The translations under genes were made by a program, and so were the position numbers. A stretch of 64,000 bases of DNA from NCBI GenBank assembly GCA_049976245.1, contig JBMFIQ010000001.1, forward strand, positions 1,265-65,264. Direction: 5' to 3'. This DNA comes from Microbacter sp. Lineage in GTDB: Bacteria; Bacteroidota; Bacteroidia; Bacteroidales; Paludibacteraceae. Within the stretch, counting starts at the first letter, position 1; each line of letters starts with the position of its first letter. The notes below the pieces were generated by a model, which saw nothing but the letters and a program-made list of their open reading frames with translations, did no database searches and was not told where the DNA came from. This document shows positions 39,771 through 62,169 of the stretch, piece by piece.

Positions 39771-42143
39771 ATGCAACCTCAGTCAAACTCAAAACCTGCG
39801 AATAAAAATGAAGAGATTGATATCGTAGAGTTATTGTTGTTTTATTTATCAAAATGGCGTTATTTTGTCATAGCCATCGTTGCTTGCATGGTTTTAGCCG
39901 TTGTTTACTTAAAGGTGGCAACCCCTAAATATCAGGTTAATGGAGCTATTTTGCTACGGACATCCGATAAAAACGATATCACTTCTCAACTTTCTCAATT
40001 GGGAGATTTTGGTTTGAATTTAGGCCAAAAGCAGGCCTCGGATGAAATTTATGTTATAAAATCTGAGCGTTTGATAGGTAAAATGATTACAAAACTGGGT
40101 TTACAGACACAATATTATATCCGTAAAGGATTAAAATATCAAGAACAATATCCGGTTCCTTCAATTAGTGTCACCATTCCTCAGTCATTGCTTGACAGTT
40201 TGTTGGAGCCGATAGAGATGACGATTACAAAAAAAGAAGATGTTTACCGAATCGATGCAGTTTATAAAAAGGAAAATAAAGAATTATACCATTGCATTAT
40301 CCGCCAAATCAACGGAAGCTATGTTACGCCATGGGGTAATATCACTTTTCAACAAAATAAACCAATGGAAGATGGGGATAAAATGAAAGTCATTATTTCT
40401 CCGTTGTCGAATCAAATTGAAGTATACGAAAAGGCTCTTTCGATTACTTTAGCACAGCGTGAATCGAACGTAATCAATCTGTCCATTGTGGTGGCCAATA
40501 AAATGAAAGGAAGAGATATTATCAATGCAATGATTTCGTTGTATAATCAGGATGCATTGAATGATAAAAATTTAATGGCAGCTCGGACGGCGGAGTTTGT
40601 AGATGAGCGTTTGAAAAAAATTACGAATGAACTGTCAACGGTTGAAAGTCAGGTTGAAGCTTATAAGGTTAGTCATAATTTGGTGGATATTCCGGCTCAG
40701 GCTCAAATGATATTGACCTCAGCCAATGAATATCAAAAGCAACTTGCTTCCATTGAAATTCAGTTAAACGGTGTGGATTGGGTTGAACAACAATTGCTTA
40801 GTCCCAAGACACAATATGCACTTATCCCGGCTAATTTGGGCATAGAAGACAAAGGTTTGATGGGTATTATTGCCGGTTATGATGATTTGTTGATGCAGCG
40901 GTTACGTCTTTTACGATCGACCAATCAGGACAATCCTGTGTTACAACAGTTAGAAACGCAAATCAAAATGACTCGTTCCAATATTTTGGCAAGTATTAAA
41001 AACGTACGTGAAGGGTTGACTATTACCAAAAATGACATCATTAAAAAGAATAATTCGTATTTAGCCAAAATTGATCAGGTACCTTCGATTGAACGGCAAT
41101 ACACTGAAATTAAACGGCAACAGGAAATCAAACAAAGTCTCTATCTTTTCTTATTGCAAAAGAGGGAAGAAAATGCATTATCGTTGGCCGCTGCCGTTTC
41201 TTCGACCAAAGTGGTTGATCCCGCTTTTGTTTCGCCTTTGCCTGTTTCTCCAAAACGAAACCTTGTGCTCATTGGGGCTTTTCTTCTTGCTATTTTCTTA
41301 ACCATTGGCTATTTGTATGTTTATGGTTTGATTCATAATAAAATCATTTCGCGCAAAGAAATTGAGAAAATGACATCGATCCCCATTCTGGGAGAAGTGG
41401 GTATTTTCAAAGGTGATGAAAGAATTTTGGTAAAAGAGGGATCAAATTCTAAATTTTCCGAAATGTTTAGAATGATTCGAACCAATCTGAATTTCTTATT
41501 GGCTGCAGAACAAGGGAAACGTGTATTGGTGACATCCAGCATTTCGGGGGAAGGGAAAACGGTGATTGCCATTAATCTTGCTCTTTCTTTTGCCATGTTG
41601 GGAAAGAAAGTGATTGTGGTGGGGATGGATGTTCGTGTTCCTCGTTTGGCTGGTTATACTCATTTGAAAGTAGATGGAGGCGTTACGAATTTTCTGATGG
41701 ATTCATCCATTGCTTTGGAATCTTTGATCTTTTCATCTGTCATTCATCCAAATTTATCTATTTTGCAGTCCGGACCTATACCTCCCAATCCGACTGAACT
41801 GTTAATGACTTCGAGGGTCGAGGAGTTGTTTGATCAATTGGACAGCATGTATGACATCATCATTGTTGATTCGGCGCCTGTGGGATTGGTGGCTGATACC
41901 TTCTCCTTGAATCGTGTTGCCAATGCGGTTGTGTTCGTTTGTCGTCAAGATGTTACTCCGAAACATTATATCAATCATTTGCATCAGTTGGAGCAACAGA
42001 AGCAGTTGAATAATGTAGGCATTGTGCTGAATGGGGTTGATATGAAAGCGGGTTATGGTTATCGTTATGGATATGGTGCGGTCGGGTACGATGAGAAAAA
42101 GAAAAAGAAGAAAAAAGCATCTTCCATATTGAAAAAAATCTAA
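39771..42143 (+). CDS. wzc: polysaccharide co-polymerase / tyrosine autokinase (Wzc-like)
   Basis: 790-aa ORF with a Wzz domain containing two TM helices and a coiled coil, Walker A (SSISGEGKT), Walker B (IIIVDSAPVG) and a C-terminal Tyr cluster (GYGYRYGYGAVGY). Confidence 0.88.
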   Translation: MQPQSNSKPANKNEEIDIVELLLFYLSKWRYFVIAIVACMVLAVVYLKVATPKYQVNGAILLRTSDKNDITSQLSQLGDFGLNLGQKQASDEIYVIKSERLIGKMITKLGLQTQYYIRKGLKYQEQYPVPSISVTIPQSLLDSLLEPIEMTITKKEDVYRIDAVYKKENKELYHCIIRQINGSYVTPWGNITFQQNKPMEDGDKMKVIISPLSNQIEVYEKALSITLAQRESNVINLSIVVANKMKGRDIINAMISLYNQDALNDKNLMAARTAEFVDERLKKITNELSTVESQVEAYKVSHNLVDIPAQAQMILTSANEYQKQLASIEIQLNGVDWVEQQLLSPKTQYALIPANLGIEDKGLMGIIAGYDDLLMQRLRLLRSTNQDNPVLQQLETQIKMTRSNILASIKNVREGLTITKNDIIKKNNSYLAKIDQVPSIERQYTEIKRQQEIKQSLYLFLLQKREENALSLAAAVSSTKVVDPAFVSPLPVSPKRNLVLIGAFLLAIFLTIGYLYVYGLIHNKIISRKEIEKMTSIPILGEVGIFKGDERILVKEGSNSKFSEMFRMIRTNLNFLLAAEQGKRVLVTSSISGEGKTVIAINLALSFAMLGKKVIVVGMDVRVPRLAGYTHLKVDGGVTNFLMDSSIALESLIFSSVIHPNLSILQSGPIPPNPTELLMTSRVEELFDQLDSMYDIIIVDSAPVGLVADTFSLNRVANAVVFVCRQDVTPKHYINHLHQLEQQKQLNNVGIVLNGVDMKAGYGYRYGYGAVGYDEKKKKKKKASSILKKI

Positions 42144-49972: not shown

Positions 49973-52900
49973 ATGAAAAAATCAATTACATTATTAAGAA
50001 CGTTGTTTTTTGTTTTGTTTTTACTCGTTGTAAACGGGGTTCTTTACGGACAAGCCTCTTTGCCTGTAAATGCCACGTTTTCATCAGTAACAACTTCAGG
50101 TCCTGGTACGATGCCTACCGGCTTTACCCAATCGGGCTTGGGTGGATATGCCGGTGCGTTGAAATTTGACACGCAAGGTGATTACTTGATTCTTTGGTTT
50201 GCCGGTACACCAGGTGTTTTGACATTTGATGTAGGAGTCAATATTACATTTCCGGGGAGTATTCCTTCAGGTGCAACTTTCACACTACAACAGTCGAACG
50301 ATGGAACTATTTATACCGATGTGGCCAATTACACAAACTGTTCAGGTGGAACTAAAACAATCAGCAATTTAAATGCAACGACCAGATATGTGAAATGGAT
50401 TTACAGCACTAAACGATCAGGGACAAATATTGCATTAAAGAATATTTCTCTGGCGGCTGCTTCTTCTTCCACAGGAATCATCTCCCTTTCGCCTGCTTCT
50501 TTGTCAGGGTTTACCTACGTTGAAGGGTCCGGCCCTTCATCTGAACAAACATTTACGCTTTCTGGCAGTAATTTGACAGCAGATGTTAGCTTGACAGCTT
50601 CGACAGATTTCGAAATTTCAAAAACTTCCGGTTCAGGTTATGCTTCACCGTTGGTTTTTACTCCATCGAACGGAACTTTGGATGCGACTACAATTTATGT
50701 CCGTTTGAAATCAGGATTGTCAGTCGGTAGTTATAGTAATGAAGCAATCACGGCTTCTTCAACAGGCGCTGACAACCAAACAATCACATGCAGCGGGAGC
50801 GTGACATCGCCTGTAAAACCAGAGCCCTCTGCTTATCCTACGTCGTTTACCGCCACTGCCAATTCGAGCAGTCAAATTACGATAACATGGACTGATGCTA
50901 CAGGCGGACAGGTCCCCGATGGCTATTTGGTGAAAGCATCAACGGGGACACCAACTGCACCGGTTGACGGCACTGCAGAATCAAATGGCGCATTGGTACT
51001 AAATGTTGCGCAAGGAACACAGCAAGCGGTATTTTCGGGTTTAGCAGCTTCAACAACATACAATGTTTCCATTTGGCCATACACCAATAGTGGCACTGCC
51101 ATCAATTATAAAACTGACGGAACTGAGCCTACCGCCACTGCAACGACCAACGCTTCGGCTTCTTATACTTGGAATCAAACGGGTTCTGCAGATTTTGGAA
51201 CAGCTTCTAATTGGACTCCGGCAAGAAGCAATCCCGATCCAACGGATGTTTTGGTCTTTAACAACGGAGCTGTCACTACCGTTACAGGCGTTTCGTCTCA
51301 AACCATTGGCGGATTGCTTGTATCGAATGGATCGAAAGTAACCTTTTCCAGTTCTGCCCCTGCAACGCTTACCATCAACAATGGCATAAGCGGTTTTGAT
51401 TTGACTGTAGATAACGGATGCGAATTAAATATTGCTCAAACCTCCGCAAATGCTTTTACAATAGCGATTGCTTCAGGAGCCACAGGGAGCATTTCCGGAT
51501 CGATGGATTTTTCGAGTACCACAGCCAATACCGTAAATCAAATTACAGCCGCTGACGCTTCAGGACTTATCTTCAATGCAGGAGCTCTATTTACCCAAAA
51601 TCTGAACAGTACAGGCAATGTCTTTGGGAGTGGCACAGCCAACAGTGTTGTGTTTGCAAACGGTTCAAGTTTTGTTCAATATGCAGGATCCAATCCTTTT
51701 CAAAAAACAGCTCCATCTTCAGTGGTTGTTTTTCAAACAGGGAGCTTGTTTAAGTTGAAAGGAAGTCTTTCTCCATCATTTTCGGGAAGAACATATGCGA
51801 ACGTGGAAATTGATGCTACCGGTAGTTTGATCTCTCCAACAGGAACTTCTGCTGTTGTCATGGACAACCTGACCATTACGAATGGGACATTGAATTTCAA
51901 TGTAACCGGAGCGCCCGGTCATATCATTAAAGGGAACATTTTCGTGGCGCCCGGAGCCACATTGAATTTTGCCCCTACTTCAGCAGGAACGGTCAATCTC
52001 GGCGGAAGTGCATTGCAAACCATTTCAGGAGGTGGCATCATCACCACTGCTACTAATTCAACTTTGAACATCAGTAATAATGCCGGTGTTATGATTGACA
52101 ACAATGCTGTTATTGGTGGTAATTTAACCATTGCAAGCGGTGCATCCTGCAGTCTTAATCCAGCCCGACAACTTACCGTTTCAGGTACTTTAACAAACAA
52201 CGGGACGTTGAATTTGTTGTCCGATGGAACCTATGGAACAGCTACCATTACAGGAACGGTTAACGGCAGTGGGACGACCAACGTAACTCAGGTTCTTGGG
52301 GCCGACCGTAACTGGTATTTGTCATCACCGGTGAGTAATGCAGCTATACCGGATGCCGATCAGGTTTGGTATTATGACGAAACGGTGGTCAGTGCTAACG
52401 CCAATGATAGTTGGAAATCGCCTACCGGATTGTTGCAAGTTGGAAGAGGTTACATTGTCAATCCTAAAGCAGACGCTATCGATCATATTATTTTCAGTGG
52501 GCTTTTGAACAGCGGTGATCAACCGGCGATCACTTTGACGCGGACTTCAACCAAAACAAATTATGTTGGGTTTAATTTATTAGGAAATCCCTACGCTTCA
52601 TTTTTGAATGTCAATGCGTTGATGAATGATCCGGACAATACAGGCAGCGTGTTGCCTACCATCTGGTATCGTACCAAGAATGGTAGCGCATGGTCATTCC
52701 CAACATTTAATGCATCCTCCGGAATCGGAGTTCCGGCTGACAACCTTGGATTCATTCCTCCTATGCAGGCTTTTTGGGTTCGTGCTACAACAGACGGCGT
52801 TTCATTTCATTTTAAGGAGGCTTTTCGGATTCACAACACCACCAATTCTCCGATAGCCTTTAAATCTTCTCCTGCACCGTTCAATAAAGTGTTGCGCTTG

Positions 52901-53557
52901 CAGGTAGCTGCCGGTGACAATACCGATCAGGCCGTGATTTACTTCAATCCTGGCGCTTCGAATGGTTTGGATGATTACGATTCGCCTAAAATGCTGAATG
53001 GAAGCACATCGACACTTCCCGATCTTTACACTTCCGAAGGGAACGAACCCTTGATTATTAACGGGATGGATACCATTCCTTACGATACGGAAATTCCCTT
53101 GACGCTCAATGCCAATGCAGCGCCGACCAGCACCTTTACCATATCGGCATTGGAATTCAGCAATTTTGATCCGAATACACATGCTTATTTGATCGATCAC
53201 GACACCAACAGCAAAACGGATTTGACGACGGACACCTACACCTTTACGTCAGATGGCACGATGAGTTCTCGATTTTCGGTTTTGTTCACATCGTCCAATC
53301 CGGCTACGAAAATTGGGACAACCACAAGCGGAGTACTACAGGTTTACACCACGAACGATCATGCCATTGTAGTGAGTTGCAACGTCAATGGATCAGGGGC
53401 GCAACGGGTGAACGTGTACAATTCGATGGGCGAATTGATCTATTCGAAAACATTTACCGGAAGCCAGTTGATCACTCCAGCGATGAATGAAGGGATGTAT
53501 GTGGTGGAATGGATGAACCAAACCGGCCGACAAATCAGGAAAGTCATGGTGCATTAA
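49973..53557 (+). CDS. large secreted T9SS cargo protein (Ig-like + FN3-like + beta-helix-like repeats + C-terminal sorting domain)
   Basis: 1194-aa ORF with a signal peptide (LFFVLFLLVVNGVLYGQA). An FN3-like segment is present (SSQITITWTDATGGQVPDGYLVKAS...TTYNVSIWPY). A long Gly/Asn/Thr-rich repetitive region suggests a beta-helix. The last ~70 aa (..VNVYNSMGELIYSKTF...GMYVVEWMNQTGRQIRKVMVH) match the Por_Secre_tail / T9SS type A CTD pattern. Confidence 0.8.
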   Translation: MKKSITLLRTLFFVLFLLVVNGVLYGQASLPVNATFSSVTTSGPGTMPTGFTQSGLGGYAGALKFDTQGDYLILWFAGTPGVLTFDVGVNITFPGSIPSGATFTLQQSNDGTIYTDVANYTNCSGGTKTISNLNATTRYVKWIYSTKRSGTNIALKNISLAAASSSTGIISLSPASLSGFTYVEGSGPSSEQTFTLSGSNLTADVSLTASTDFEISKTSGSGYASPLVFTPSNGTLDATTIYVRLKSGLSVGSYSNEAITASSTGADNQTITCSGSVTSPVKPEPSAYPTSFTATANSSSQITITWTDATGGQVPDGYLVKASTGTPTAPVDGTAESNGALVLNVAQGTQQAVFSGLAASTTYNVSIWPYTNSGTAINYKTDGTEPTATATTNASASYTWNQTGSADFGTASNWTPARSNPDPTDVLVFNNGAVTTVTGVSSQTIGGLLVSNGSKVTFSSSAPATLTINNGISGFDLTVDNGCELNIAQTSANAFTIAIASGATGSISGSMDFSSTTANTVNQITAADASGLIFNAGALFTQNLNSTGNVFGSGTANSVVFANGSSFVQYAGSNPFQKTAPSSVVVFQTGSLFKLKGSLSPSFSGRTYANVEIDATGSLISPTGTSAVVMDNLTITNGTLNFNVTGAPGHIIKGNIFVAPGATLNFAPTSAGTVNLGGSALQTISGGGIITTATNSTLNISNNAGVMIDNNAVIGGNLTIASGASCSLNPARQLTVSGTLTNNGTLNLLSDGTYGTATITGTVNGSGTTNVTQVLGADRNWYLSSPVSNAAIPDADQVWYYDETVVSANANDSWKSPTGLLQVGRGYIVNPKADAIDHIIFSGLLNSGDQPAITLTRTSTKTNYVGFNLLGNPYASFLNVNALMNDPDNTGSVLPTIWYRTKNGSAWSFPTFNASSGIGVPADNLGFIPPMQAFWVRATTDGVSFHFKEAFRIHNTTNSPIAFKSSPAPFNKVLRLQVAAGDNTDQAVIYFNPGASNGLDDYDSPKMLNGSTSTLPDLYTSEGNEPLIINGMDTIPYDTEIPLTLNANAAPTSTFTISALEFSNFDPNTHAYLIDHDTNSKTDLTTDTYTFTSDGTMSSRFSVLFTSSNPATKIGTTTSGVLQVYTTNDHAIVVSCNVNGSGAQRVNVYNSMGELIYSKTFTGSQLITPAMNEGMYVVEWMNQTGRQIRKVMVH

Positions 53558-53627
53558 AAAGGCAGTTTGAACTGAGATAAATATCAAGAATCAATCAAGA
53601 ATCAATCAAAAATAAAAACAAGTCAAT

Positions 53628-53786
53628 ATGAAACGTATTTATATCGCCCCCGAAATTGAAACCATCCAATTAGATCATGAAATCTCTTTAGCGTTGGAAT
53701 CGACCCCGCCGAATGGGCCTGACGAAACTTTAAACACCCGGGAACATTTCACTCCAAATGATCCATATAATCCGACATTGACCTAA
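53628..53786 (+). CDS. candidate RiPP precursor peptide (52 aa), unannotated sORF
   Basis: Hand translation gives MKRIYIAPEIETIQLDHEISLALESTPPNGPDETLNTREHFTPNDPYNPTLT*. It has an A-rich Bacteroidota-style translation start and a lasso-leader-like Y-x-x-P-x-I-x-x-I motif. It sits immediately upstream of PqqD, kinase and peptidase-ABC genes and is followed by an intrinsic terminator. Confidence 0.6.
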   Translation: MKRIYIAPEIETIQLDHEISLALESTPPNGPDETLNTREHFTPNDPYNPTLT

Positions 53787-53802
53787 ACGGATGCTTCAAA
53801 AT

Positions 53803-53842
53803 AAAAAACCGTCTGTAGCCTTTTAGTTCGGACGGTTTTTTT
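53803..53842 (+). terminator. intrinsic terminator/attenuator directly after the precursor sORF
   Basis: AAAAAACCGTC (53803-13) / GACGGTTTTTTT (53831-42): the CCGTC/GACGG stem, extendable through A:T pairs, is followed by a T7 run. Confidence 0.65.
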
Positions 53843-53874
53843 GTGCTTTTCATCTTTTAACTAAGAATATGTGC

Positions 53875-53882
53875 TATATTTG
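53875..53882 (+). promoter_or_regulatory. -7 box (TATATTTG) upstream of the PqqD-kinase-ABC genes
   Basis: TAnnTTTG 34 nt upstream of ATG 53916. Confidence 0.45.
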
Positions 53883-53915
53883 TCAAATATGTATCTTTTT
53901 TCAAACCTTTGATCT

Positions 53916-54206
53916 ATGAATTTTGAACAATTAAAAGCATTAAAATCTCATTTTGTTTCTAAAGAAGTAGGCGATGAACTTGTTTTAGTGCCGCTGACAA
54001 ATAATGTCGTTCAGATGAATGAACTTTTTACGCTCAATGAAACCGGTCGGTTTATTTGGCAAAACAGCGACAACGTTGAGGACATCGATCGAATGGCCAC
54101 TTTAATGACCGATGCTTTCGACATTGATCGTGAAACTGCACAAAAGGATATTTCAAACTTTTTAGATCGAATTGCTACTTTATTCATTAAAAAACGCAGC
54201 CTATAA
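53916..54206 (+). CDS. PqqD-family protein (RiPP recognition element-like peptide chaperone)
   Basis: 96-aa ORF. Its size and pattern (..GDELVLVPL....MNELFTLNETGRFIWQ......DIDRMATLMTDAFDIDRETAQKDISNFLDRI) are typical of stand-alone PqqD/RRE proteins such as lasso B1. Confidence 0.75.
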   Translation: MNFEQLKALKSHFVSKEVGDELVLVPLTNNVVQMNELFTLNETGRFIWQNSDNVEDIDRMATLMTDAFDIDRETAQKDISNFLDRIATLFIKKRSL

Positions 54207-54213
54207 ATTTGAA

Positions 54214-55071
54214 ATGCCTGTCAAAACACTTTCCATTGCCGGCATCGTTGTTCAACTTCGTTCCGATTCCCCTTTTATGCTGGAAGAAGGTTATTTGCCT
54301 TTTGTCGTGAACAATGCCTTTTTGCCATCCGTTCTTATTGATTGCCATTTGGGAATTCCACCTTCCGTGATTCCTGTTTCTACTCCTGTTTTTGAGGCCA
54401 AAACTGAAGTTCAACAATTTTATGCCGTTTACGATCGCGGAAGTGAAGGATTGCTTTTTCAAATTTTTGATCAGCAGGATGGCAAAACGCAGCAGATAGC
54501 CATTAGCAATGCGACTTTTGATCAATGGGAAATATTTTCGGAATCGATGAACGGGATGCTTATTCCCTTAAAATTTCCTCTCGGCCCCATCATCATTCAC
54601 TATATGGCGTTGAATTTGGAAGCCGTTTTGATGCATGCTTCATGTGTTTTCGATGGGCAGAAAGGGCGTTTGTTCAGCGGTTTTTCAGGCGCAGGCAAAA
54701 GCACCATTTCACGCATATTCTCAAAATCGGGTCAAACTGTGGTGAATGATGACAGAATCCTGATTCGGAAAGAAAAAGGGAACTTTATTGCTTACAATAC
54801 GCCGATGTATTATGTCGATCAACCCAAAAATGCCTCATTGGATGCCATTTATTTGATTCATCACTCGCCAGAAAATAGCATAAAACAATTAACGGGAGCA
54901 TTGGCTGTGACAAAAGTAATGGCTTTTTGCATTCAAAATAATTTTGATCGACAATTTGTGAATGCGCGGTTGAACTTTTTTGTCGAACTGTGCTCTAAAG
55001 TGAAGGTTTATGAACTTGGTTTTGTCCCTGACAAAAGCGTTGTGGATTTTATTTCACAACATGCTGAATGA
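54214..55071 (+). CDS. HPr-kinase-like P-loop serine/threonine kinase (lasso-precursor-kinase-like)
   Basis: ORF track 54172..55071. The likely start is ATG 54214, 7 nt after the PqqD stop. LMHASCVFDGQKGRLFSGFSGAGKSTISRIF...GQTVVNDDRILI mirrors the HprK C-terminal kinase core (HA..V...G.G.L..G.SG.GKS.....L...G..LV.DD). Confidence 0.7.
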   Translation: MPVKTLSIAGIVVQLRSDSPFMLEEGYLPFVVNNAFLPSVLIDCHLGIPPSVIPVSTPVFEAKTEVQQFYAVYDRGSEGLLFQIFDQQDGKTQQIAISNATFDQWEIFSESMNGMLIPLKFPLGPIIIHYMALNLEAVLMHASCVFDGQKGRLFSGFSGAGKSTISRIFSKSGQTVVNDDRILIRKEKGNFIAYNTPMYYVDQPKNASLDAIYLIHHSPENSIKQLTGALAVTKVMAFCIQNNFDRQFVNARLNFFVELCSKVKVYELGFVPDKSVVDFISQHAE

Positions 55072-55130
55072 TGGCATAAAGAACAGAAACCGGATTGCTA
55101 TTTTCCCTTGCAAAGAACAAAGATTCAAGT

Positions 55131-57368
55131 ATGACAAAACTGACCGGAAAAGAACCATTGATCCATTTAGCCGAAGCGCTGCTTGAAGGTGACCATTCGG
55201 TGAGTTTTGTGATGCAGGGCTACAGCATGTATCCAACGTTGCGTCCGTCTGACAAAGGGTTGGTCGAAAAATGTCATCCAAAAGACCTTCGAAAAGGGGA
55301 CATCCTTGTTTTTCGACAAGATCAACAATGGATTGCGCACCGACTCATGCAGATCAAAGTCACGGAAAATGGCACTACGTTTTTGACAAAAGGAGATCGG
55401 CTTAAAACGTTTGATGCGCCTGTTGATGAAAAAGCCGTTGTGGGAAAGGTGATCGCTTATGAACGACACAACAAAACCGTCTCATTGAATGGATTGGTTT
55501 TAAGAAAGCAATTTGTATTGCATTTTCCAACCTTCAGTGCAAGACTTTTTAGCATGGAATTATCCATCCTGCTGCAATTTCTCCATACCAGAGAAAGCAT
55601 TGCCCGTTTGATTAAGCATGTCAAGCTGTTTTTGCAAGGTTCAGTCAGGATTTTTCTCATCAATAGCTTGATTTCCGTGCTTCAGGGAGTTGTTCCGTTG
55701 TTGACCATTGTGTCCATCAAAATGCTTATTGATCAAATTGGAAAGGCTTCTCTTCAAGGCAGTTCAGTCTATGTCCTTTTCTGGCTGATCATTACAGGCT
55801 CTCTTTTTCTTTTGGCAGGGATATTGACCGAGATGTCAGGATTCTTTTTAGAGAAAATGGAACAATCGGTTTCGCGCATGGTTTATCGCAGTATGCACGA
55901 CAAACACGCAACGATTCCGCTGGCAGCCTACGAAATACCGACAGAGCAGGATAAAATGCATCGTGCCGTTCAGGAGGCGTCATTTCGTCCTTTGAAATGG
56001 TTGAATGAACTTTTGGGGTTGATACGTTCCGTTACGGGATCTCTGTTGTTAGCCGTAATTTTTTTGACCATTCGGTGGTATTTACCCATCATTTTGTTAG
56101 TTGCCGTTTTGCCTGGTGTGGTTGTACGACTTCGGTATGCTCGCCGTAACTACCGGCTCAAAACAGCCCAAAGTACCCAAGAGCGTGCCTTGTACTATTT
56201 TAATCGTGTCTTGACAGCTTTTCCGTTTGCTAAAGAGCTGCGACTTTTTCATTTTTCCGACTACTTTAAAACAAAATTCTCGACGGTACAGGAAGATTTG
56301 TTTGCGGAGAAATTATCGCTTAGAAAAGCGGAAATGACGGGCGGGATTTTGACACAACTCTTTGCCGTCATGGTCATTTTTGGGAGCATGGGATTGTTCT
56401 CTTATCTGAGCTTGAACAATTCAGTTAGCGTGGGCACGGTGGTGCTGTTTTTCTTTGCCTTTCAACGTGGATATGCCGTGGTGAATGAGCTTTTTCAATC
56501 CATTATCCGAATTTCACAGGATAATATATTTTTGGACGATGTGAGTGCGTTTTTGCAACAATCACAAGATGTTGAAAATAAACAACATGATCGCGTATTT
56601 TCATTAAAAAAAGAAATCCGATTTGAACAAGCCTCGTTCAGTTATGCGCACAGCGGACGCCAAGCATTGAAGAATATTGATTTGATTATTCCTGTGGGTA
56701 AAAAAGTGGCGTTTGTCGGCGAAAACGGCTCGGGAAAAACAACCACAGTCAAATTGCTTTGCGGATTTTACTATCCCGACAGCGGCAAAGTGACTTACGA
56801 CGGCATTTCTACCACCGAGTTCAACCCATCTGCAATCTTGGAACACATTGCTGCCGTTTTTCAGGATTTTGCACTTTACAATCTCACCGCCCTCGAAAAC
56901 ATCGGATTAGGCAATGTGGCTTCGCCCGTCAATTTGGAGAAGACGCAGTTGGCAGCACAAAAAGCCGGTATTCATGATGTGTTGAACAAACTTCCTCGCG
57001 GTTATCATCATCTATTGGGCAATTTGTTTGAAGGAGGAGAAGAGTTGAGCATGGGTCAGTGGCAAAAAATGGCTTTAGCCAGAGCTTTTTATAGAGATTC
57101 GGAATTGATTGTCTTGGATGAGCCTTCCAGTGCGCTCGACGCTCATGCCGAAAAACAAATGGTCAATGCACTTCGCAGGCTTACCGCCGACAAAACTGCC
57201 GTCATTGTCAGTCATCGGTTGTCCACCGTGCAATGGGCAGACAAAATTTACTTTTTTCACGATGGTGAAGTTCGAGAAGAGGGCACGCACACTGAATTGA
57301 TGGCGCTGAAAGGAGGTTATTATCAATTGTTTAACGCCGTCAATAGTGGCAATGATGGTCATGAATAA
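55131..57368 (+). CDS. fusion protein: N-terminal SipW/Sec11-type (S26) signal-peptidase-like domain + ABC exporter (TMD + NBD)
   Basis: ORF track 55095..57368 (TTG). The likely start is ATG 55131. The N-terminal ~130 aa carry GYSMYPTL (SPase Ser box), GDILVFR, IAHRL (His box of ER/archaeal-type SPases) and TKGD. Multiple TM helices follow. The NBD has Walker A GENGSGKTT, signature LSMGQWQK, Walker B LIVLDEPSSALD and H-loop VSHR. Confidence 0.75.
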   Translation: MTKLTGKEPLIHLAEALLEGDHSVSFVMQGYSMYPTLRPSDKGLVEKCHPKDLRKGDILVFRQDQQWIAHRLMQIKVTENGTTFLTKGDRLKTFDAPVDEKAVVGKVIAYERHNKTVSLNGLVLRKQFVLHFPTFSARLFSMELSILLQFLHTRESIARLIKHVKLFLQGSVRIFLINSLISVLQGVVPLLTIVSIKMLIDQIGKASLQGSSVYVLFWLIITGSLFLLAGILTEMSGFFLEKMEQSVSRMVYRSMHDKHATIPLAAYEIPTEQDKMHRAVQEASFRPLKWLNELLGLIRSVTGSLLLAVIFLTIRWYLPIILLVAVLPGVVVRLRYARRNYRLKTAQSTQERALYYFNRVLTAFPFAKELRLFHFSDYFKTKFSTVQEDLFAEKLSLRKAEMTGGILTQLFAVMVIFGSMGLFSYLSLNNSVSVGTVVLFFFAFQRGYAVVNELFQSIIRISQDNIFLDDVSAFLQQSQDVENKQHDRVFSLKKEIRFEQASFSYAHSGRQALKNIDLIIPVGKKVAFVGENGSGKTTTVKLLCGFYYPDSGKVTYDGISTTEFNPSAILEHIAAVFQDFALYNLTALENIGLGNVASPVNLEKTQLAAQKAGIHDVLNKLPRGYHHLLGNLFEGGEELSMGQWQKMALARAFYRDSELIVLDEPSSALDAHAEKQMVNALRRLTADKTAVIVSHRLSTVQWADKIYFFHDGEVREEGTHTELMALKGGYYQLFNAVNSGNDGHE

Positions 57369-57615: not shown

Positions 57616-58260
57616 ATGACAACAAAACAGCCTTTAATCATTACCATCAGTCGACAGTTAGGTTCGGGTGGGGCATACATCGGGCAGTTGATTGCAAGAT
57701 ATTTTGACATTCTTTACGCCGATCGTGACATCATTGCCGACACAGCCAAAACATTATCGCTCCATCCTAAAGACATTGCTCATCGTGACGAGAAAATGAT
57801 TTCCGGATGGGAATCATTTATTCAAGCCATTACTCGACCTCCCGAACGGATTGAATTCAAGCCGTTTCCTCCTACCGATAAAGAACTTTTTAAGGCTGAA
57901 AGTGAAGTCATTAGGCGTTTGGCTTTTGAACGTTCTGCCGTGATCATGGGTCGCTGTGGTTCGTGCATCCTTCATGACCATCCCAATCTGATCAGTGTCT
58001 TTTTACATGCAAGCGATGAGTTCCGCATCAAACATCTTTGCGATGTTCACCAGATGTCGGAAGTCAAAGCAAAAAAAACCATTGTGGAATACGACAAGGC
58101 CAGAGGAGCTTTTATCAAACAGTTTACCGGCGTGGACTGGAAAGATGCCACGCACTATCATCTTACTTTTAAAACAGACCTTCTTGGTCTTGACACAACG
58201 GCTAAAGAAATCATCAATGTCGTTGAAACCATGTTGTCCAAAAAAGAACAGCTTCTTTAA
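57616..58260 (+). CDS. cytidylate-kinase-like family protein (AAA/P-loop, function unknown)
   Basis: ORF track 57574..58260 (GTG). The likely start is ATG 57616 (MTTKQPLIITISRQLGSGGAYIGQLIA), preceded by AAGGAGG at 57601-57607. The pattern resembles the Cytidylate_kin2 family. Confidence 0.65.
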   Translation: MTTKQPLIITISRQLGSGGAYIGQLIARYFDILYADRDIIADTAKTLSLHPKDIAHRDEKMISGWESFIQAITRPPERIEFKPFPPTDKELFKAESEVIRRLAFERSAVIMGRCGSCILHDHPNLISVFLHASDEFRIKHLCDVHQMSEVKAKKTIVEYDKARGAFIKQFTGVDWKDATHYHLTFKTDLLGLDTTAKEIINVVETMLSKKEQLL

Positions 58261-58588: not shown

Positions 58589-60772
58589 ATGAACATCGAA
58601 ACAAAGATTCGCCTAAAAGCTGCCGGTTTGTACATGATCACAGCCATTGTTGTTGTGGCGATGTTAATCTTTCTGTTTAACCTGAGAAAAAACCTTGCCC
58701 ATCAGCAGGCAGTGATAGCGAAACAACGTCAAAAATTGACGCTTACCAATGAATTGATTTATGATGTTAATGAGGCTCAGTCGGCTGTCAGCCTCTTTTT
58801 TACTACTCATGACACAACCCACGTTATCCGTTTTAGGAAAAAATTGTTGTCGATTGATGCATTGATTGATACGCTTAGCGTCATTGAACCTGAAGGGAAG
58901 GGAAAATTATTGCAAATCAAACAATTGCTTTCCCGTCAAGCCTCGAATATCTTGGCTTTAAATCGGCTTTTGAATAATGAAAATCCCATTACGTCCATCA
59001 ATAAAAGTATTCTTCAATATAAACCTCAACAAAATGTCACAACTCAGATAGCCAACATTCGACGCGACACGTTATATCAGCCATCAAAGAAGAAAAAGGG
59101 TTTTTTTAGGCGAATCAAAGAAGTTTTTAGCCCTGAAAAAAGTACCACGATGGTTATTTCCAATGTGCGGGTGGATACCGTTCGGGTAGAGCAAGTCAAT
59201 CCGGCTCCCGTATTGACGGATGTAAAAAAGCTGGTGACAATGGCAGGTCAACGGTATGATCAGAAGATTCGTGAAATAGCGCAACAAGTTGCCAATCAAA
59301 TGATGTCTGACAGGGAAATTTCCACGCAAGTGGCTAACTTGTTGTTGGCGCTTCATCGCGAAACACTTCAATCCATGCTTTCCGGTATAGATGCCGGCGA
59401 ACGTTCCATTGATCGAAACTATACCTTTTCCATCATTGGCAGCATGGTGGCTTTAGGCTTTATCCTGTTTTTCATTCTGCTCATCATTTACGACGTCAAC
59501 AAAGGGAAAGAAGCCCGAGAAAAACTTCGTCAGGTCATGGAAAGCCGCCATCAACTGCTGCTCTCCGTTTCACACGACATTAAAAGTCCTTTGGGATCCA
59601 TTTTGGGGTATCTTGAATTGCATCGTTTCAGCGAAGATGAAATCCATTCCATGCAAAATTCCGCGCGTCTTATTCAATCGTTGCTTGACAATCTACTGGA
59701 ATATTCGAGCCTCGAACAAGGATCATTGCAATGCTCTTTTTCTACATTTGATCTTCATGAATTAGGAGAAGAAATCAATCAACTGTTTTTGCCTTTGGCT
59801 CAGGCTAAACTAATAGCATTGACCTGCACTTCGGATCGGATTCGTCTTATTTCGGATGCCGTGAAAATCAGACAAATCATCATCAATCTGGTTTCTAATG
59901 CCGTGAAATATACTCGACAAGGTACGGTTCAACTTGCCATGACTTATGTTGATCAACAATTGTGCATTGAGGTGAAGGACACCGGAGCCGGGATTCCCAG
60001 GGACAAGTTGAATGAAATTTACAAGCCTTTTGTGCGGATTGAAAGCAACAATGCACTGGCACACGGTACAGGCTTGGGAATGTTTGTGGTGAAAGGACTC
60101 ATCGACCTGTTGGGAGGCACCATTCGGCTTGCCTCTGCCGTGGGAGAAGGCACTTCCGTAACCGTAAAGATTCCGTGCAATAAAGCAGAAAGCAAAATCA
60201 AGCAGGGAGCCAAACGCATTGCCGTGTTTGATGATGATCCGACCATTGTGAAGATGGCCGGCGAGATGCTTACGCGTTTGGGACATACGGTTACGGAAAA
60301 AGATTATGAAATGATTTTAACCGATTTGGAAATGGGACCCGTTTCGGGGAAAGATATTCTGACGTCGGCAGGATCCATCCCAGTCATTGTGATGACGGGG
60401 CATACTGATTTTACCCTCGAAAAGGCGCTTCAAATGGGATTTGCCGACTTCCTCCCAAAACCTTTTTTCATCGATTCACTTCGCGAAATTTTTGGTGAAG
60501 GGACAAGCAGTTCCGATGATTTTTCACCCGAAGCTGACGACGCTGTGATGAAGTTGTTCCGATCGGCTACTGTCGAACACCAAGAATGGTTAAAACAGGC
60601 GTTGGCCGATGATGACTTTGACAAAGCTCAGGCTGTTTGCCACAAGATGTTGCCTATGTTCACGTTGTTGGGTTATCCCACTGATGCCTTGCGCCGCATG
60701 GATGCTCAGCGTGCAAAAGTTTATGAGGGCTGGCAAAAAGATGTTGAGACTGTTTTGAGTATTAAAATTTAA
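58589..60772 (+). CDS. hybrid sensor histidine kinase (HisKA-HATPase-REC-Hpt)
   Basis: 727-aa ORF with TM helices and a coiled-coil sensor region, an H-box (SHDIKSPLGSI), N/G boxes (NLVSNAVKYT, DTGAGI, GTGLGM), a receiver (VFDDDP..ILTDLEMG..KPF) and a C-terminal Hpt-like His (CHKMLPMFTLLGY). Confidence 0.88.
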   Translation: MNIETKIRLKAAGLYMITAIVVVAMLIFLFNLRKNLAHQQAVIAKQRQKLTLTNELIYDVNEAQSAVSLFFTTHDTTHVIRFRKKLLSIDALIDTLSVIEPEGKGKLLQIKQLLSRQASNILALNRLLNNENPITSINKSILQYKPQQNVTTQIANIRRDTLYQPSKKKKGFFRRIKEVFSPEKSTTMVISNVRVDTVRVEQVNPAPVLTDVKKLVTMAGQRYDQKIREIAQQVANQMMSDREISTQVANLLLALHRETLQSMLSGIDAGERSIDRNYTFSIIGSMVALGFILFFILLIIYDVNKGKEAREKLRQVMESRHQLLLSVSHDIKSPLGSILGYLELHRFSEDEIHSMQNSARLIQSLLDNLLEYSSLEQGSLQCSFSTFDLHELGEEINQLFLPLAQAKLIALTCTSDRIRLISDAVKIRQIIINLVSNAVKYTRQGTVQLAMTYVDQQLCIEVKDTGAGIPRDKLNEIYKPFVRIESNNALAHGTGLGMFVVKGLIDLLGGTIRLASAVGEGTSVTVKIPCNKAESKIKQGAKRIAVFDDDPTIVKMAGEMLTRLGHTVTEKDYEMILTDLEMGPVSGKDILTSAGSIPVIVMTGHTDFTLEKALQMGFADFLPKPFFIDSLREIFGEGTSSSDDFSPEADDAVMKLFRSATVEHQEWLKQALADDDFDKAQAVCHKMLPMFTLLGYPTDALRRMDAQRAKVYEGWQKDVETVLSIKI

Positions 60773-62075
60773 TGCCGTAATGGTGCATTTTGTTGTAAAG
60801 TGTCTTTCGGTCAATTTTTAGCAACCGTGCGGCTAAGGTTTTATTGCCTCCGGCTTTACGCAAGGCGGTTTCTATTTGTACCCGTTCGTTTTCGGGCTGC
60901 AAGGTCAAAGTTTCCGTTGGTTGCGGCGTAAGCATAAAAGCAGGCATTTCGTTGGCCGTGATTTGGTCATTTGAGGCAAAGAGTACCAAACGTCTTACCG
61001 TGTTGCGCAATTCACGCAGATTGCCGCTCCAATGATGTTGTTCAAGCAATTTCATGGCTTCAGGGGAAAACCCGCGTACCGATTTGTCCAATTCTTCATT
61101 CGCCTGATGAAGAAACGCGTTGGCAAAAAGTTCAATGTCTCCTTTTCGTTCCCGAATGGGCGGGACAAAGAGTGAAAATTCGTTGAGACGGTGAAAAAGA
61201 TCTTCGCGAAAACGACCTTCGGCAATGGCTGTACTCAAATCTTCGTTGGTAGCCGCAAGAATACGTACATCCACCTTGATGTCTTTGGCTGAACCAACCG
61301 GTCGAACACTCTGTTCCTGTAGAGTTCGGAGCAATTGTATCTGCACGTCGTATGACAAATTCCCTACTTCATCCAAAAAAACGGTTCCATGATTGGCTTG
61401 TTCAAAAATGCCTGTTTTGTTGTCAATGGCCGATGTGAATGAGCCTTTGAGATGGCCAAAGAGTTCGCTTGGAGCCAGTTCACGCGACAAACTGCCACAA
61501 TCGACGGCAATAAAAGGATTGTTGCGGCGGGGACTGTTGTCGTGAATCATGCGGGCTGCATACTCTTTGCCTGTCCCGCTTTCTCCAACGATTAAGACCG
61601 ACATGCGGGTGGGAGCAACCCGCAGGATGTGATCGTACATTTGAACGGCAAGGGGACTTTTGCCCAAAATCATGGATGAAGTTTTGGGTAGTGCCGTTTT
61701 CTCCAAAGATGGTTTTTTGGAAAGCGCCAATTCAATTTTTTCTTTCAAAACGGAAGGGTTCATCGGTTTTTCCAAAAAATCCTCAGCGCCCAATTTCATT
61801 GCTGCCACAGCGCTTTGAATTTCACCGTAACTTGTCATGATGATCACTGGAATGGCCATTTTACGTTCCCTGAGCCAGTGTAACAACATTAGGCCATCAC
61901 CATCAGGCAAACGTAAATCGCTCAGCAATAAATGAAAATCGCTACGTGTCATTGCGGCCTGAGCTGATGCAACGCCATTGCAAAGTGCTGCCTCAAAACC
62001 ATGACGATGACACCAGCTTTGCAACATGGTTCCAAAGGCTGTGTCATCGTCAATGATTAGGATTCGCTGTTTCAT
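60762..62075 (-). CDS. sigma-54-dependent response regulator (NtrC family)
   Basis: ORF track 60762..62126. The likely start is ATG 62075 (MKQRILIIDDD). It has a receiver, an AAA+ domain with GESGTGKE, a GAFTGA-like loop (GSFTSA), ELFGH, and a C-terminal Fis-type HTH. Confidence 0.9.
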   Translation of the reverse strand: MKQRILIIDDDTAFGTMLQSWCHRHGFEAALCNGVASAQAAMTRSDFHLLLSDLRLPDGDGLMLLHWLRERKMAIPVIIMTSYGEIQSAVAAMKLGAEDFLEKPMNPSVLKEKIELALSKKPSLEKTALPKTSSMILGKSPLAVQMYDHILRVAPTRMSVLIVGESGTGKEYAARMIHDNSPRRNNPFIAVDCGSLSRELAPSELFGHLKGSFTSAIDNKTGIFEQANHGTVFLDEVGNLSYDVQIQLLRTLQEQSVRPVGSAKDIKVDVRILAATNEDLSTAIAEGRFREDLFHRLNEFSLFVPPIRERKGDIELFANAFLHQANEELDKSVRGFSPEAMKLLEQHHWSGNLRELRNTVRRLVLFASNDQITANEMPAFMLTPQPTETLTLQPENERVQIETALRKAGGNKTLAARLLKIDRKTLYNKMHHYGIKF

Positions 62076-62169
62076 ACAAGGAACAAAGATAGAAAAAATT
62101 CGTCGATTTGTTCCTTGTGCGATCAAAAACAGCTTGTTCTATTAACTGATTATCATGGCAGTGTGTTTG

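What the first reader, a model, noticed from the sequence alone, without database searches (positions are those of the whole stretch)
53628..57368. Cyclase-less precursor + PqqD + HprK-like kinase + signal-peptidase-ABC operon: candidate new RiPP-type system
Seen in sequence: four co-directional, tightly spaced genes.
- A 52-codon sORF.
- A 96-aa PqqD-like protein.
- A P-loop kinase with the HPr-kinase core (GFSGAGKST...VVNDDRILI), starting 7 nt after the PqqD stop.
- An ABC exporter whose N-terminal domain has S26 signal-peptidase boxes.

Established knowledge: the combination of PqqD/RRE, HprK-like kinase and a leader carrying YxxPxL is known from phosphorylated lasso peptides (paeninodin-type clusters). 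Those clusters always also encode an asparagine-synthetase-like cyclase (C) and a transglutaminase-like protease (B2). Neither is present here or in the flanking genes, which are a T9SS cargo protein upstream and a cytidylate-kinase-like gene and a two-component system downstream.

Inference: the RRE presents the leader to the kinase, the hydroxyl-rich core is phosphorylated, and the exporter-fused peptidase removes the leader during export. The product would be a linear phosphopeptide. I do not know of a described family with this architecture.
Basis: partly seen in the sequence, partly recalled or inferred. Interest (0 to 1): 0.9.

Follow-up and report, generated by a model that had tools for sequence, protein, structure and literature searches.

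The report
Bacteroidales linear phosphopeptide (LPP-like) system
This locus is a Bacteroidales version of the recently described "linear polyphosphorylated peptide" pathway, and it matters because its precursor peptides are always encoded right behind surface-adhesin genes, which hints at what these peptides are for.

Summary
All four genes are real. They are a 52-aa peptide with a YxxP leader, a PqqD-type RRE, an HprK/PEPCK-fold P-loop protein, and an ABC exporter with a cytoplasmic N-terminal SipW/Sec11-type serine peptidase.

PqqD–kinase–exporter is a fixed triad in 108 related Paludibacteraceae-like loci. None has a lasso cyclase or B2 protease, so it is not a decayed lasso cluster.

The architecture is no longer undescribed. 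Popov et al. (Nat Commun 2026, PMC13381572) showed in Bacillota that SpI peptidase, RRE, HprK-like kinase, MsbA-like pump and NTP-transferase make "linear polyphosphorylated peptides" (LPPs). Their supplementary table lists two of these Bacteroidales peptidase–ABC fusions without analysing them.

Three things are new here:
- The peptidase is fused to the exporter.
- The precursor family is identified: at least 1261 members, with two invariant Ser in the same register as the LPP cleavage and phosphorylation sites.
- The peptide gene always lies 13–100 nt behind a RemA-like T9SS adhesin gene. This holds even far from the triad.

So this is two units, not a four-gene operon.

Verdict: a new variant of a known kind. 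Phosphorylation, cleavage and substrate identity are inferred, not shown.

The parts
49973..53557 (+). T9SS cargo: a large surface adhesin whose C-terminal ~500 aa (from about 52031) are RemA/RemZ-like and end in a type A sorting domain. It is the constant upstream partner of the peptide gene.
   Evidence: Por_Secre_tail and fn3 hits are weak. A profile of the C-terminal region matches F. johnsoniae RemA and RemZ (PDB 8gl6, 8gl8) at E 1e-28. A homologue precedes the sORF in 45 of 48 assessable cases and in all sORF-seeded loci.
53628..53786 (+). Precursor peptide, 52 aa. Predicted leader: aa 1-20, MKRIYIAPEIETIQLDHEIS (53628-53687), with YxxP at 53640-53651. Predicted core: aa 21-52, LALESTPPNGPDETLNTREHFTPNDPYNPTLT. 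Ser20 is the predicted -1 cleavage position and Ser25 the candidate phosphorylation site.
   Evidence: The family has 1261 members at E<=0.01. Y, P, D, I, S, L, S and P are invariant. A hydroxyl residue at Tyr+15 and a Ser shortly after match the register of the LPP leader/core junction. The cleavage and phosphorylation sites are inferred only.
53800..53845 (+). Terminator-like hairpin with a T-tract, lying between the peptide gene and the RRE gene.
   Evidence: Sequence read directly. RNA fold gives -18.4 kcal/mol, z = -2.94. The simple consensus scanner missed it.
53916..54206 (+). Discrete RiPP recognition element (PqqD family), the LppB analogue.
   Evidence: Pfam PqqD 51.6 bits. The nearest NCBIfam families are lasso PqqD chaperones, below cut-off. 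The best PDB match is TbiB1. Asn41 and Asp78 align with LppB Asn33 and Asp70. Present in 28/28 genome loci; PqqD-like sequence was detected in 79 of the 80 metagenome loci.
54214..55071 (+). HprK/PEPCK-fold P-loop protein, the presumed peptide Ser kinase (LppK analogue).
   Evidence: Invariant HAS...GFSGxGKST...NDDR. AF2 pLDDT 92; Foldseek top hits are PEPCK and HprK/P at E 3.5e-7 to 1e-5. HMM hits are weak. There are 375 close homologues.
55131..57368 (+). Peptidase-containing ABC exporter. It has a cytoplasmic SipW/Sec11-type serine peptidase domain (aa 1-~125, 55131-55505; Ser32/His70/Asp95), six TM helices (aa ~165-445) and an NBD (aa ~496-745). It combines the LppS and LppD functions in one protein.
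   Evidence: ABC_tran 98.5 bits; S24/S26 hits sub-threshold. MsbA-like, 272 bits. SEC11A/C alignment. 26% identity to LppS (E 9e-13) and 40% to P. propionicigenes WP_013444635.1. Hydropathy shows six TM helices and none before the peptidase domain.

Best explanation
The locus holds two linked units.

Unit 1 (53916-57368) is an LPP-type RiPP maturation and export module. It consists of a PqqD-family RRE, an HprK-like kinase, and an MsbA-like ABC exporter. The exporter's cytoplasmic N-terminal domain is an archaeal/ER-type (SipW/Sec11-like) Ser-His-Asp peptidase.

Unit 2 (49973-53786) is a RemA-like T9SS adhesin gene followed by a 52-aa precursor peptide gene.

Proposed pathway:
1. The RRE binds the YxxP motif of the peptide leader.
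2. The kinase adds one or more phosphates to a conserved Ser just beyond the leader, most likely Ser25.
3. The exporter-fused peptidase cuts after the conserved Ser at Tyr+15 (Ser20).
4. The linear phosphopeptide is pumped into the periplasm.

Other copies of the peptide gene, each behind its own adhesin gene elsewhere in the genome, would be processed in trans by the single module.

Shown here: the gene content, the folds and motifs, the conservation, and the genomic linkage. Shown elsewhere, for the homologous Bacillota system: RRE-dependent cleavage by the SpI peptidase and Ser polyphosphorylation by the kinase. Inferred: that this peptide is the substrate, the two sites, and any role in adhesin biology.
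For: - Gene set. PqqD scores above the Pfam threshold. The kinase has the HprK core motifs and the PEPCK/HprK fold. The peptidase domain aligns its Ser, His and Asp to SEC11 and to LppS. The exporter has six TM helices and none before the peptidase domain, so that domain is cytoplasmic.
- Precedent. This set matches four of the five core LPP genes, for which phosphorylation and RRE-dependent cleavage were shown by MS and mutagenesis (PMC13381572).
- RRE residues. Asn41 and Asp78 align with the LppB residues that bind the Pro and Tyr of YxxP.
- Triad conservation. The triad is invariant in 108 loci, which form 85 groups at 95% kinase identity.
- Fifth core gene. An NTP_transf_5 gene (194 bits) sits next to the triad in 15 of the 108 loci.
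- Peptide features. The family has an invariant Y..P, an invariant Ser at Tyr+15 and another at Tyr+20. LPP has Thr at Tyr+15 (the cleavage site) and Ser at Tyr+18 (the phosphorylation site).
- Linkage. 33 of 63 triad groups with at least 1.5 kb of upstream sequence carry one to three peptide genes. At least three arrangements occur: same strand upstream, tandem arrays, and convergent downstream.
- No competitor. No other conserved small ORF with a Y/WxxP motif was found in triad loci that lack the sORF.
Against: - No chemistry was tested here.
- The peptide gene follows the adhesin gene rather than the triad. All 7 homologues sampled on long contigs have no triad within 10 kb.
- About half of the triad loci have no peptide gene within the DNA fetched.
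- A terminator-like hairpin separates the sORF from PqqD.
- An HMM built from 11 LPP leaders does not retrieve these peptides. hhalign matches only K-Y-x-x-P-x-[IV] (probability 50%).
- The kinase and peptidase HMM scores are below curated thresholds.
- The window has no NTP-transferase.
- Direct similarity to LppK could not be tested because no sequence was available.
Confidence: 0.65

Rival explanations
1. The triad is an LPP-like module, but the sORF is not its substrate. The small protein would serve the adhesin in some other way (a cytoplasmic partner, regulator or immunity-like factor). Its frequent position next to the triad would be inherited synteny within Paludibacteraceae, and the true substrate would be encoded elsewhere.
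For: The sORF lies directly after a RemA-like cargo gene in 45 of 48 assessable cases. The same holds in all loci seeded from sORF homologues, none of which has a PqqD or kinase within 10 kb. There is a terminator-like hairpin between the sORF and PqqD. All loci come from one narrow clade. The LPP leader HMM does not find the sORFs.
Against: The family has an invariant YxxP, the motif bound by lasso and LPP RREs. Its two invariant Ser are in the LPP register. It has no signal peptide, so export would need a dedicated pump. Adjacency to the triad is about 50%, in several different arrangements, which is far more than a few dispersed copies in a genome of a few Mb (my assumption; genome size and copy number per genome were not measured) would give by chance. 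No alternative precursor candidate was found near the triads.
Confidence: 0.2
2. The module makes an exported peptide signal, in the style of a ComC/ComA pheromone. The signal would report adhesin expression and would be sensed by neighbouring two-component or hybrid sensor kinases. In this reading phosphorylation is secondary.
For: The exporter-fused leader peptidase is architecturally analogous to peptidase-containing pheromone and bacteriocin exporters (from established knowledge of PCATs). Histidine kinases or hybrid two-component sensors lie next to the triad in the window and in about 9 of 29 genome loci. In L106 the sensor is directly upstream of PqqD.
Against: The sensor genes are not conserved partners; they belong to different families and sit in different positions. 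An inner-membrane ABC pump alone delivers only to the periplasm. The conserved kinase and RRE are unexplained if the peptide is simply a signal.
Confidence: 0.08
3. The locus is a decayed or partial lasso-peptide cluster that has lost its cyclase and B2 protease.
For: The RRE's nearest named families are lasso PqqD chaperones, and its best PDB hit is TbiB1. HprK-like kinases and NTP_transf_5 are known lasso tailoring enzymes (PMC8498205).
Against: All three genes are intact in 108 loci forming 85 distinct groups. No Asn-synthase-like or transglutaminase-like gene cluster appears in the flanks. A dedicated serine peptidase replaces B2. The same cyclase-less design is functional in Bacillota.
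Confidence: 0.02
4. The HprK/PEPCK-fold protein does not phosphorylate the peptide. It might carry out other ATP-dependent chemistry, or act only as a scaffold or ATPase, so the product would not be a phosphopeptide.
For: All HMM hits cover only the P-loop region and are far below the cut-offs. The best Foldseek hits are PEPCK rather than HprK. The family lacks the C-terminal Ser used by the lasso kinases.
Against: The protein has the HprK signature H-[AG]-S...GxSGxGKS...DDR. The same gene set in Paenibacillus yields a polyphosphorylated Ser that is internal, not C-terminal.
Confidence: 0.08

Closest known systems
Linear polyphosphorylated peptides (LPP) of Bacillota: LppA/K/B/S/D/N (Popov et al., Nat Commun 2026;17:6633, PMC13381572)
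   Same: Both have a discrete PqqD-type RRE with the same Asn and Asp contacts. Both have an HprK-like kinase, an archaeal/ER-type signal-peptidase-like leader peptidase with a Ser-His-Asp triad, and an MsbA-like exporter. Neither has a macrolactam cyclase. Both leaders carry YxxPx[V/I], a hydroxyl residue 15 positions after the Tyr, and a conserved Ser a few residues later. The NTP_transf_5 partner is present in 15 of 108 related loci.
   Different: Here the peptidase is fused to the N-terminus of the exporter instead of being a separate ~150-aa protein. The host is a Gram-negative Bacteroidales, whereas the paper states that LPPs are restricted to Bacillota. The rest of the leader consensus (VLxHQxIxFET) is not shared, and an LPP-leader HMM does not find these peptides. 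The core has a conserved C-terminal motif (PEYFNNDPFKTNxG in most members) rather than a hypervariable tail. Precursor genes are dispersed and always follow T9SS adhesin genes, rather than lying inside the cluster. The window has no NTP-transferase. The paper's supplementary table lists two such fusions (SSN cluster 8) with their RRE classed as 'other' and the precursor not determined.
Phosphorylated lasso peptides (paeninodin, pseudomycoidin type)
   Same: Both use an RRE that reads a [Y/W]xxP leader and an HprK-like kinase that acts on the linear precursor. Both have an optional NTP_transf_5 and an ABC exporter.
   Different: This system has no Asn-synthetase-like cyclase and no B2 cysteine protease. 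The lasso kinases phosphorylate the C-terminal Ser, whereas this family ends in Gly, Val or Ala.
Peptidase-containing ABC transporters (PCATs, C39 domain; ComA, NHLM-type exporters)
   Same: Both have a cytoplasmic N-terminal leader peptidase fused to a six-TM ABC exporter, which couples leader removal to export.
   Different: The peptidase here is a serine S26B (SipW/Sec11) fold, not a C39 cysteine protease. The family's leader has no conserved double-glycine motif. Cleavage is expected to depend on the RRE.
SipW / Sec11 type I signal peptidases (S26B)
   Same: The catalytic Ser, His and Asp motifs are shared (GxSMxP, HR, KGD...D).
   Different: This domain has no N-terminal membrane anchor and sits on the cytoplasmic side. 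Its substrate lacks a hydrophobic signal peptide.

Membership tests
LPP RiPP family (Popov et al. 2026) | Archaeal/ER-type signal-peptidase-I-like leader peptidase (LppS) with a Ser-His-Asp triad | tested here: met
   It is present as the N-terminal domain of the exporter. Ser32, His70 and Asp95 align with SEC11A/C and with LppS S29/H68/D93. Identity to LppS is 26% over 131 aa, pairwise E 9e-13. Pfam S24/S26 scores are below the gathering thresholds.
LPP RiPP family (Popov et al. 2026) | Discrete PqqD-type RRE that binds a YxxP leader through a conserved Asn and Asp | tested here: met
   PF05402 scores 51.6 bits. Asn41 and Asp78 align with LppB Asn33 and Asp70 at the same 37-residue spacing. 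Overall identity to LppB is low (25% over 48 aa). Binding itself was not tested.
LPP RiPP family (Popov et al. 2026) | HprK-like kinase (LppK) | tested here: inconclusive
   The HprK core motifs and the PEPCK/HprK fold are present. HMM scores are sub-threshold. No LppK sequence was available for a direct comparison.
LPP RiPP family (Popov et al. 2026) | MsbA-like ABC exporter (LppD) | tested here: met
   ABC_tran scores 98.5 bits. The best NCBIfam model is MsbA at 272 bits, below its equivalog cut-off. Hydropathy shows six TM helices.
LPP RiPP family (Popov et al. 2026) | Uncharacterised NTP transferase (LppN, PF14907) | tested here: not met
   There is no homologue anywhere in the 64-kb window. 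It is present, convergent with the exporter gene, in 15 of 108 related loci. In the published system, deleting lppN did not change the detected products.
LPP RiPP family (Popov et al. 2026) | Precursor with the N-terminal consensus YxxPxVLxHQxIxFETxxS | tested here: inconclusive
   YxxPx[I/V] is shared, as is a hydroxyl residue at Tyr+15 followed by a conserved Ser. The remainder differs. The LPP-leader HMM does not retrieve the sORFs, and hhalign aligns only 11 columns.
LPP RiPP family (Popov et al. 2026) | No macrolactam cyclase, so the product stays linear | tested here: met
   No such gene lies within about 15 kb in the window. None appears among conserved or sampled flanking genes of the 108 loci.
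LPP RiPP family (Popov et al. 2026) | Polyphosphorylation of a core Ser and RRE-dependent leader cleavage | not testable with these tools
   This needs expression and mass spectrometry.
Phosphorylated lasso peptides (paeninodin type) | Asn-synthetase-like macrolactam cyclase (C) and transglutaminase-like protease (B2) | tested here: not met
   Both are absent from the window flanks and from the related loci.
Phosphorylated lasso peptides (paeninodin type) | C-terminal Ser as the phosphorylation site | tested here: not met
   Among 120 family members the last residue is Gly in 73, Val in 20, Ala in 17, Ser in 6, Thr in 3 and Cys in 1. The window peptide ends in Thr.
PCAT (C39 peptidase-containing ABC transporters) | C39 cysteine peptidase domain and a double-glycine leader | tested here: not met
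   There is no C39 hit; the N-terminal domain is S26B-like. The leader has no GG motif.
HPr kinase/phosphorylase proper (HprK/P) | A score above the curated thresholds for Hpr_kinase_C or TIGR00679 | tested here: not met
   The scores are 16.9 bits against 33.3, and 14.3 bits against 240.

The most novel reading that the evidence does not exclude
Each RemA-like T9SS adhesin gene carries its own phosphopeptide precursor. After maturation and export to the periplasm by the single RRE-kinase-peptidase/ABC module, the phosphopeptide would be a dedicated partner of that adhesin. It might be needed for the adhesin's secretion, surface anchoring or movement, or it might couple adhesin expression to a signal. 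That would give LPP-type RiPPs their first biological role. It would also be an unrecognised link between RiPP biosynthesis and type IX secretion or gliding.
Probability: 0.25. Interest if true: 0.85.

Novelty: new variant of a known kind. Interest (0 to 1): 0.55.

Why it matters
LPPs were described only in 2026. The paper states that they are restricted to Bacillota and that their final structure and biological role are unknown.

This locus and more than 100 relatives extend the pathway to Gram-negative Bacteroidales. They show a new way of coupling leader removal to export, a serine-peptidase-containing ABC transporter. They also supply a large precursor family that is easy to recognise.

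The strict pairing of every precursor gene with a RemA-like T9SS adhesin gene is a concrete, testable clue to function. It parallels the Bacillota observation that LPP clusters sit inside capsule loci; both point to the cell surface.

The locus is also a clear case of a RiPP system whose precursors are mostly encoded away from the enzymes. Cluster-based mining tools would miss such a system.

Tried and rejected
- A strict regex for M-x(0-6)-YxxPx[ILVMFT] found the window peptide but none of its homologues, because they carry longer K-rich N-termini. An HMM replaced it.
- A search of the 5.8-billion protein set with the peptidase domain alone returned nothing, probably because of the word prefilter. 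The exhaustive representative search later gave 5600 hits. Most were ~150-aa stand-alone proteins; about 11 of the top 150 were ~740-aa fusions.
- Sequence search of the kinase against the PDB gave only noise. Fold search was needed.
- The sORF profile found nothing in the PDB.
- An HMM of LPP leaders did not pick out the sORFs, so I do not claim sequence homology of the precursors beyond the RRE-binding motif.
- A search for any other Y/WxxP small ORF in triad loci lacking the sORF gave only random-looking ORFs.
- The sigma-70 promoter scan was uninformative: fewer sites than in shuffles, and Bacteroidales promoters are not covered. The terminator scan missed the hairpin after the sORF.
- Rfam found nothing in the locus.
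- Conserved neighbours downstream of the exporter turned out to be housekeeping synteny and were dropped: what look, by reading their sequences (not run through an HMM library), like a class IV aminotransferase/PabC-like gene, PabB and a DEAD-box helicase.
- The cytidylate-kinase-like gene after the exporter is unique to this window and was not counted as part of the system.

Full report
**1. Observation**

- a 52-codon sORF at 53628-53786;
- a 96-aa protein at 53916-54206;
- a 285-aa protein at 54214-55071, starting 7 nt after the previous stop;
- an ABC exporter at 55131-57368. The ATG at 55131 fits homologues better than the upstream TTG.

The window comes from a Microbacter sp. MAG (Bacteroidales), because the 285-aa and 52-aa products match annotated proteins of that MAG exactly.

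PqqD is a clear hit (PF05402, 51.6 bits against a cut-off of 23.4).

The 'kinase' gives only weak, P-loop-centred HMM hits: Hpr_kinase_C E 0.005, PEPCK_ATP E 4e-4, HprK_rel_B 38 bits against 200. Other evidence is stronger. The HprK signature H-A-S...GFSGxGKST...NDDR is invariant across homologues. An AlphaFold2 model built on 30 sequences has pLDDT 92.1, and its best PDB matches are ATP-dependent PEPCK and HPr kinase/phosphorylase.

The exporter has a strong ABC_tran domain and six predicted TM helices. Its first ~125 residues match S24/S26 only below threshold. Even so, they align Ser (GYSMYP), His (AHR) and TKGD...D with human SEC11A/C, the ER-type signal peptidase. No TM helix precedes this domain, so it is cytoplasmic, like the C39 domain of PCATs.

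I judge the observation confirmed, with one caveat. The sORF is 129 nt from PqqD, and a terminator-like hairpin with a T-tract lies between them.

**2. The conserved unit is a triad, and it is not a decayed lasso cluster**

One scan of species-representative genomes gave 28 loci, all Paludibacter-like Bacteroidales. One metagenome scan gave 80 more. The kinase seed was followed by the peptidase-ABC gene wherever the contig extended that far, and PqqD-like sequence preceded it in 28/28 genome loci and 79/80 metagenome loci. The 108 loci form 85 groups at 95% kinase identity.

Clustering all flanking ORFs showed no conserved Asn-synthetase-like or transglutaminase-like gene. The recurrent neighbours are housekeeping synteny (what look, from reading their sequences, like a class IV aminotransferase/PabC-like gene, PabB, a DEAD-box helicase, DapF and ribosomal protein S1) or unrelated genes. 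In the window itself, the genes within about 15 kb are two-component systems, an ABC-F protein, TsaD, Sir2, an acyltransferase and polysaccharide export proteins.

The one recurrent accessory gene is an NTP_transf_5 nucleotidyltransferase (PF14907, 194 bits). It lies convergent with the exporter gene in 15 of 108 loci and is absent from this window.

**3. The sORF is a real, large family, but it travels with the adhesin gene**

An HMM built from seven homologues found the peptide in only 10 of the first 29 loci. In every case it lay 27-60 nt downstream of a homologue of the upstream T9SS cargo gene. This held even when that pair sat 6 kb from the triad (L019) or on the opposite strand beyond the exporter (L026).

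A profile search returned 1261 proteins of ~55-60 aa. Their consensus is:

M-(K-rich)-K-x-Y-x-x-P-x-I-E-x-I-x-L-D-N-E-I-S-L-x-L-E-S-(variable, P/G/E-rich)-A-P-E-Y-F-N-N-D-P-F-K-T-N-x-G

Y, P, D, I, S, L, S and P are invariant or nearly so.

All seven sit 13-97 nt after a large Por_Secre_tail protein that carries the same C-terminal region. None has a PqqD, kinase or peptidase-ABC gene within 10 kb. One MAG has at least two copies, one beside its triad and one not.

From the triad side:
- 33 of 63 groups with at least 1.5 kb of upstream sequence carry a peptide gene;
- 15 of 35 groups with at least 3 kb on both sides carry one;
- some loci have tandem arrays of two or three adhesin-peptide pairs;
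- 45 of 48 assessable peptides follow a cargo homologue.

A profile of the cargo's C-terminal ~500 aa matches Flavobacterium johnsoniae RemA and RemZ at E 1e-28 (PDB 8gl6 and 8gl8). RemA is a mobile gliding adhesin and RemZ is its homologue (PMC10994853).

**4. What is known**

A full-text search found Popov et al., Nat Commun 2026 (PMC13381572). They describe 'linear polyphosphorylated peptides' (LPPs) in Bacillota. The clusters have these core genes:
- a discrete RRE (LppB);
- an HprK-like kinase (LppK);
- an uncharacterised NTP transferase (LppN);
- an MsbA-like pump (LppD).

There is no macrolactam cyclase.

In a heterologous host, LppK put one to four phosphates on Ser3 of the core. LppS cut after Thr-1, and only when LppB presented the precursor. 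Mutating LppS at S29, H68 or D93 abolished cleavage. LppB Asp70 and Asn33 hold the Tyr and Pro of the leader's YxxP. The leader consensus is YxxPxVLxHQxIxFET|xxS.

The authors state that LPPs are restricted to Bacillota, that their role is unknown, and that the clusters sit in capsule loci.

Their Supplementary Data 1, however, lists as SSN cluster 8 two Bacteroidales 'signal peptidases' of 747 and 743 aa. One is from Paludibacter propionicigenes. The other is OIP81682.1 from Porphyromonadaceae bacterium CG2_30_38_12, the same MAG as my locus L014; the RRE sequence the table lists beside it is identical to the PqqD translated from L014. Each has a neighbouring RRE classed as 'other', and the precursor is marked not determined. 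These fusions were therefore catalogued but not interpreted.

**5. Direct comparison**

I used the sequences given in that table.

Peptidase domain:
- 40% identical to the P. propionicigenes fusion;
- 38-40% identical to Brocadia and Kuenenia SpI proteins;
- 26% identical to LppS (pairwise E 9e-13), with the catalytic Ser, His and Asp aligned.

RRE: only 25% identical to LppB over 48 residues. Its Asn41 and Asp78 nevertheless align with LppB Asn33 and Asp70 at identical spacing.

Precursors, aligned on the Tyr:
- LPP has Thr at Tyr+15 (the cleavage site) and Ser at Tyr+18 (the phosphorylated residue).
- This family has an invariant Ser at Tyr+15 (E-I-S) and an invariant Ser at Tyr+20 (L-x-L-E-S).

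By analogy I predict cleavage after Ser20 of the window peptide and phosphorylation at Ser25. This is inference only. An HMM of LPP leaders does not retrieve these peptides, and hhalign aligns only K-Y-x-x-P-x-[IV].

The paeninodin-type rule of phosphorylating a C-terminal Ser (PMC8498205) cannot apply, because the family ends in Gly, Val or Ala in 110 of 120 members.

An exhaustive search with the peptidase domain found 5600 relatives at E<=0.001. Most of the best 150 are ~150-aa stand-alone proteins, the size of LppS. About 11 are ~740-aa fusions.

**6. Most likely mechanism**

The RRE binds the YxxP leader. The HprK-like enzyme phosphorylates a Ser just past the leader, possibly several times. 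The cytoplasmic peptidase domain of the exporter cuts the presented leader. The ABC pump moves the linear phosphopeptide across the inner membrane.

Because most precursor genes lie elsewhere, one module would serve several precursors in trans.

I put 0.65 on this as a whole. The parts differ: that the triad is an LPP-type module is more likely; that the sORF is its substrate is about 0.7; the exact sites are less likely.

The main rival (0.2) is that the peptide serves the adhesin in some other way and only sits near the triad by synteny. Three points argue against it: the invariant RRE-binding motif, about 50% adjacency in several arrangements, and the absence of any other candidate precursor.

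**7. Novelty and interest**

The system works like an LPP pathway and meets most of the defining features. Relative to the published family it differs in five ways:
- the phylum;
- the peptidase-exporter fusion;
- the usual absence of the NTP-transferase;
- a different leader and core consensus;
- the dispersed, adhesin-coupled precursor genes.

I rate it a new variant of a known kind.

The most interesting open reading is that the phosphopeptides are dedicated partners of RemA-like T9SS adhesins. That would give LPPs a function. It echoes the capsule-locus context in Bacilli, and in this window polysaccharide export genes lie roughly 12-15 kb upstream of the RRE gene.

Noticed in passing
window 38956-42143: Wza-like (Poly_export/SLBB) and Wzc-like (Wzz/GNVR/P-loop) polysaccharide export genes lie roughly 12-15 kb upstream of the RRE gene. 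A Poly_export gene also follows the exporter in L112. LPP clusters in Bacilli are reported to sit inside capsule loci (PMC13381572). This could be coincidence.
   Followed up: partly
window 57616-58260: A Cytidylate_kin2 (PF13189, 155 bits) gene lies directly after the exporter. It is not found next to the triad in any other locus, so it is probably unrelated.
   Followed up: partly
L089-L091, L097, L026 (e.g. L089 7260-10560, minus strand): In these loci the NTP_transf_5 gene lies co-directional with, and immediately downstream of, the adhesin-peptide pair. That makes an adhesin-peptide-nucleotidyltransferase unit convergent with the triad.
   Followed up: partly
L040, L041, L080, L084, L088, L108, L118: There are tandem arrays of two or three adhesin-peptide pairs upstream of one triad. 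The peptides within an array are sometimes nearly identical.
   Followed up: no
L071 14413-14526, L072 8975-9088, L078 14365-14541 (minus strand): Truncated peptide remnants (core only, no start or leader) lie next to the NTP_transf_5 gene without an adhesin homologue. They look like decayed copies.
   Followed up: no
window 53916-54206 (RRE), residues ~27-34: The RRE has a 5-residue insertion (NNVVQ in LTNNVVQMNE) before the LNETG motif. The SpI-associated RREs of Dehalobacter and Acidobacteria in the Popov et al. table share it, but LppB and the lasso B1 proteins do not. This suggests a wider, unstudied group of SpI+RRE systems.
   Followed up: partly
Popov et al. Supplementary Data 1, SSN clusters 6 and 8: The RRE sequence listed for Kuenenia CAJ74029.1 is identical to the one listed for OIP81680.1. 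That sequence matches the PqqD translated from L014. One of the two table entries may be a slip.
   Followed up: partly
L002, L016, L020, L022, L023, L106 (e.g. L106 1-2172); window 58589-62126: Hybrid two-component sensors (Y_Y_Y + HisKA + REC + AraC HTH) or other histidine kinases often lie directly next to the triad, but they are not a fixed partner.
   Followed up: partly
window 21775-21869 (-) and 4020-4091 (-): A TPP riboswitch (54.4 bits, just at the gathering score) and a tRNA-Gln(ttg). Both are unrelated to the finding.
   Followed up: no
kinase homologues P0001-P0120: Many carry a precomputed Pfam domain, PF27840, that is not in the local Pfam copy. I could not establish what it is.
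   Followed up: no
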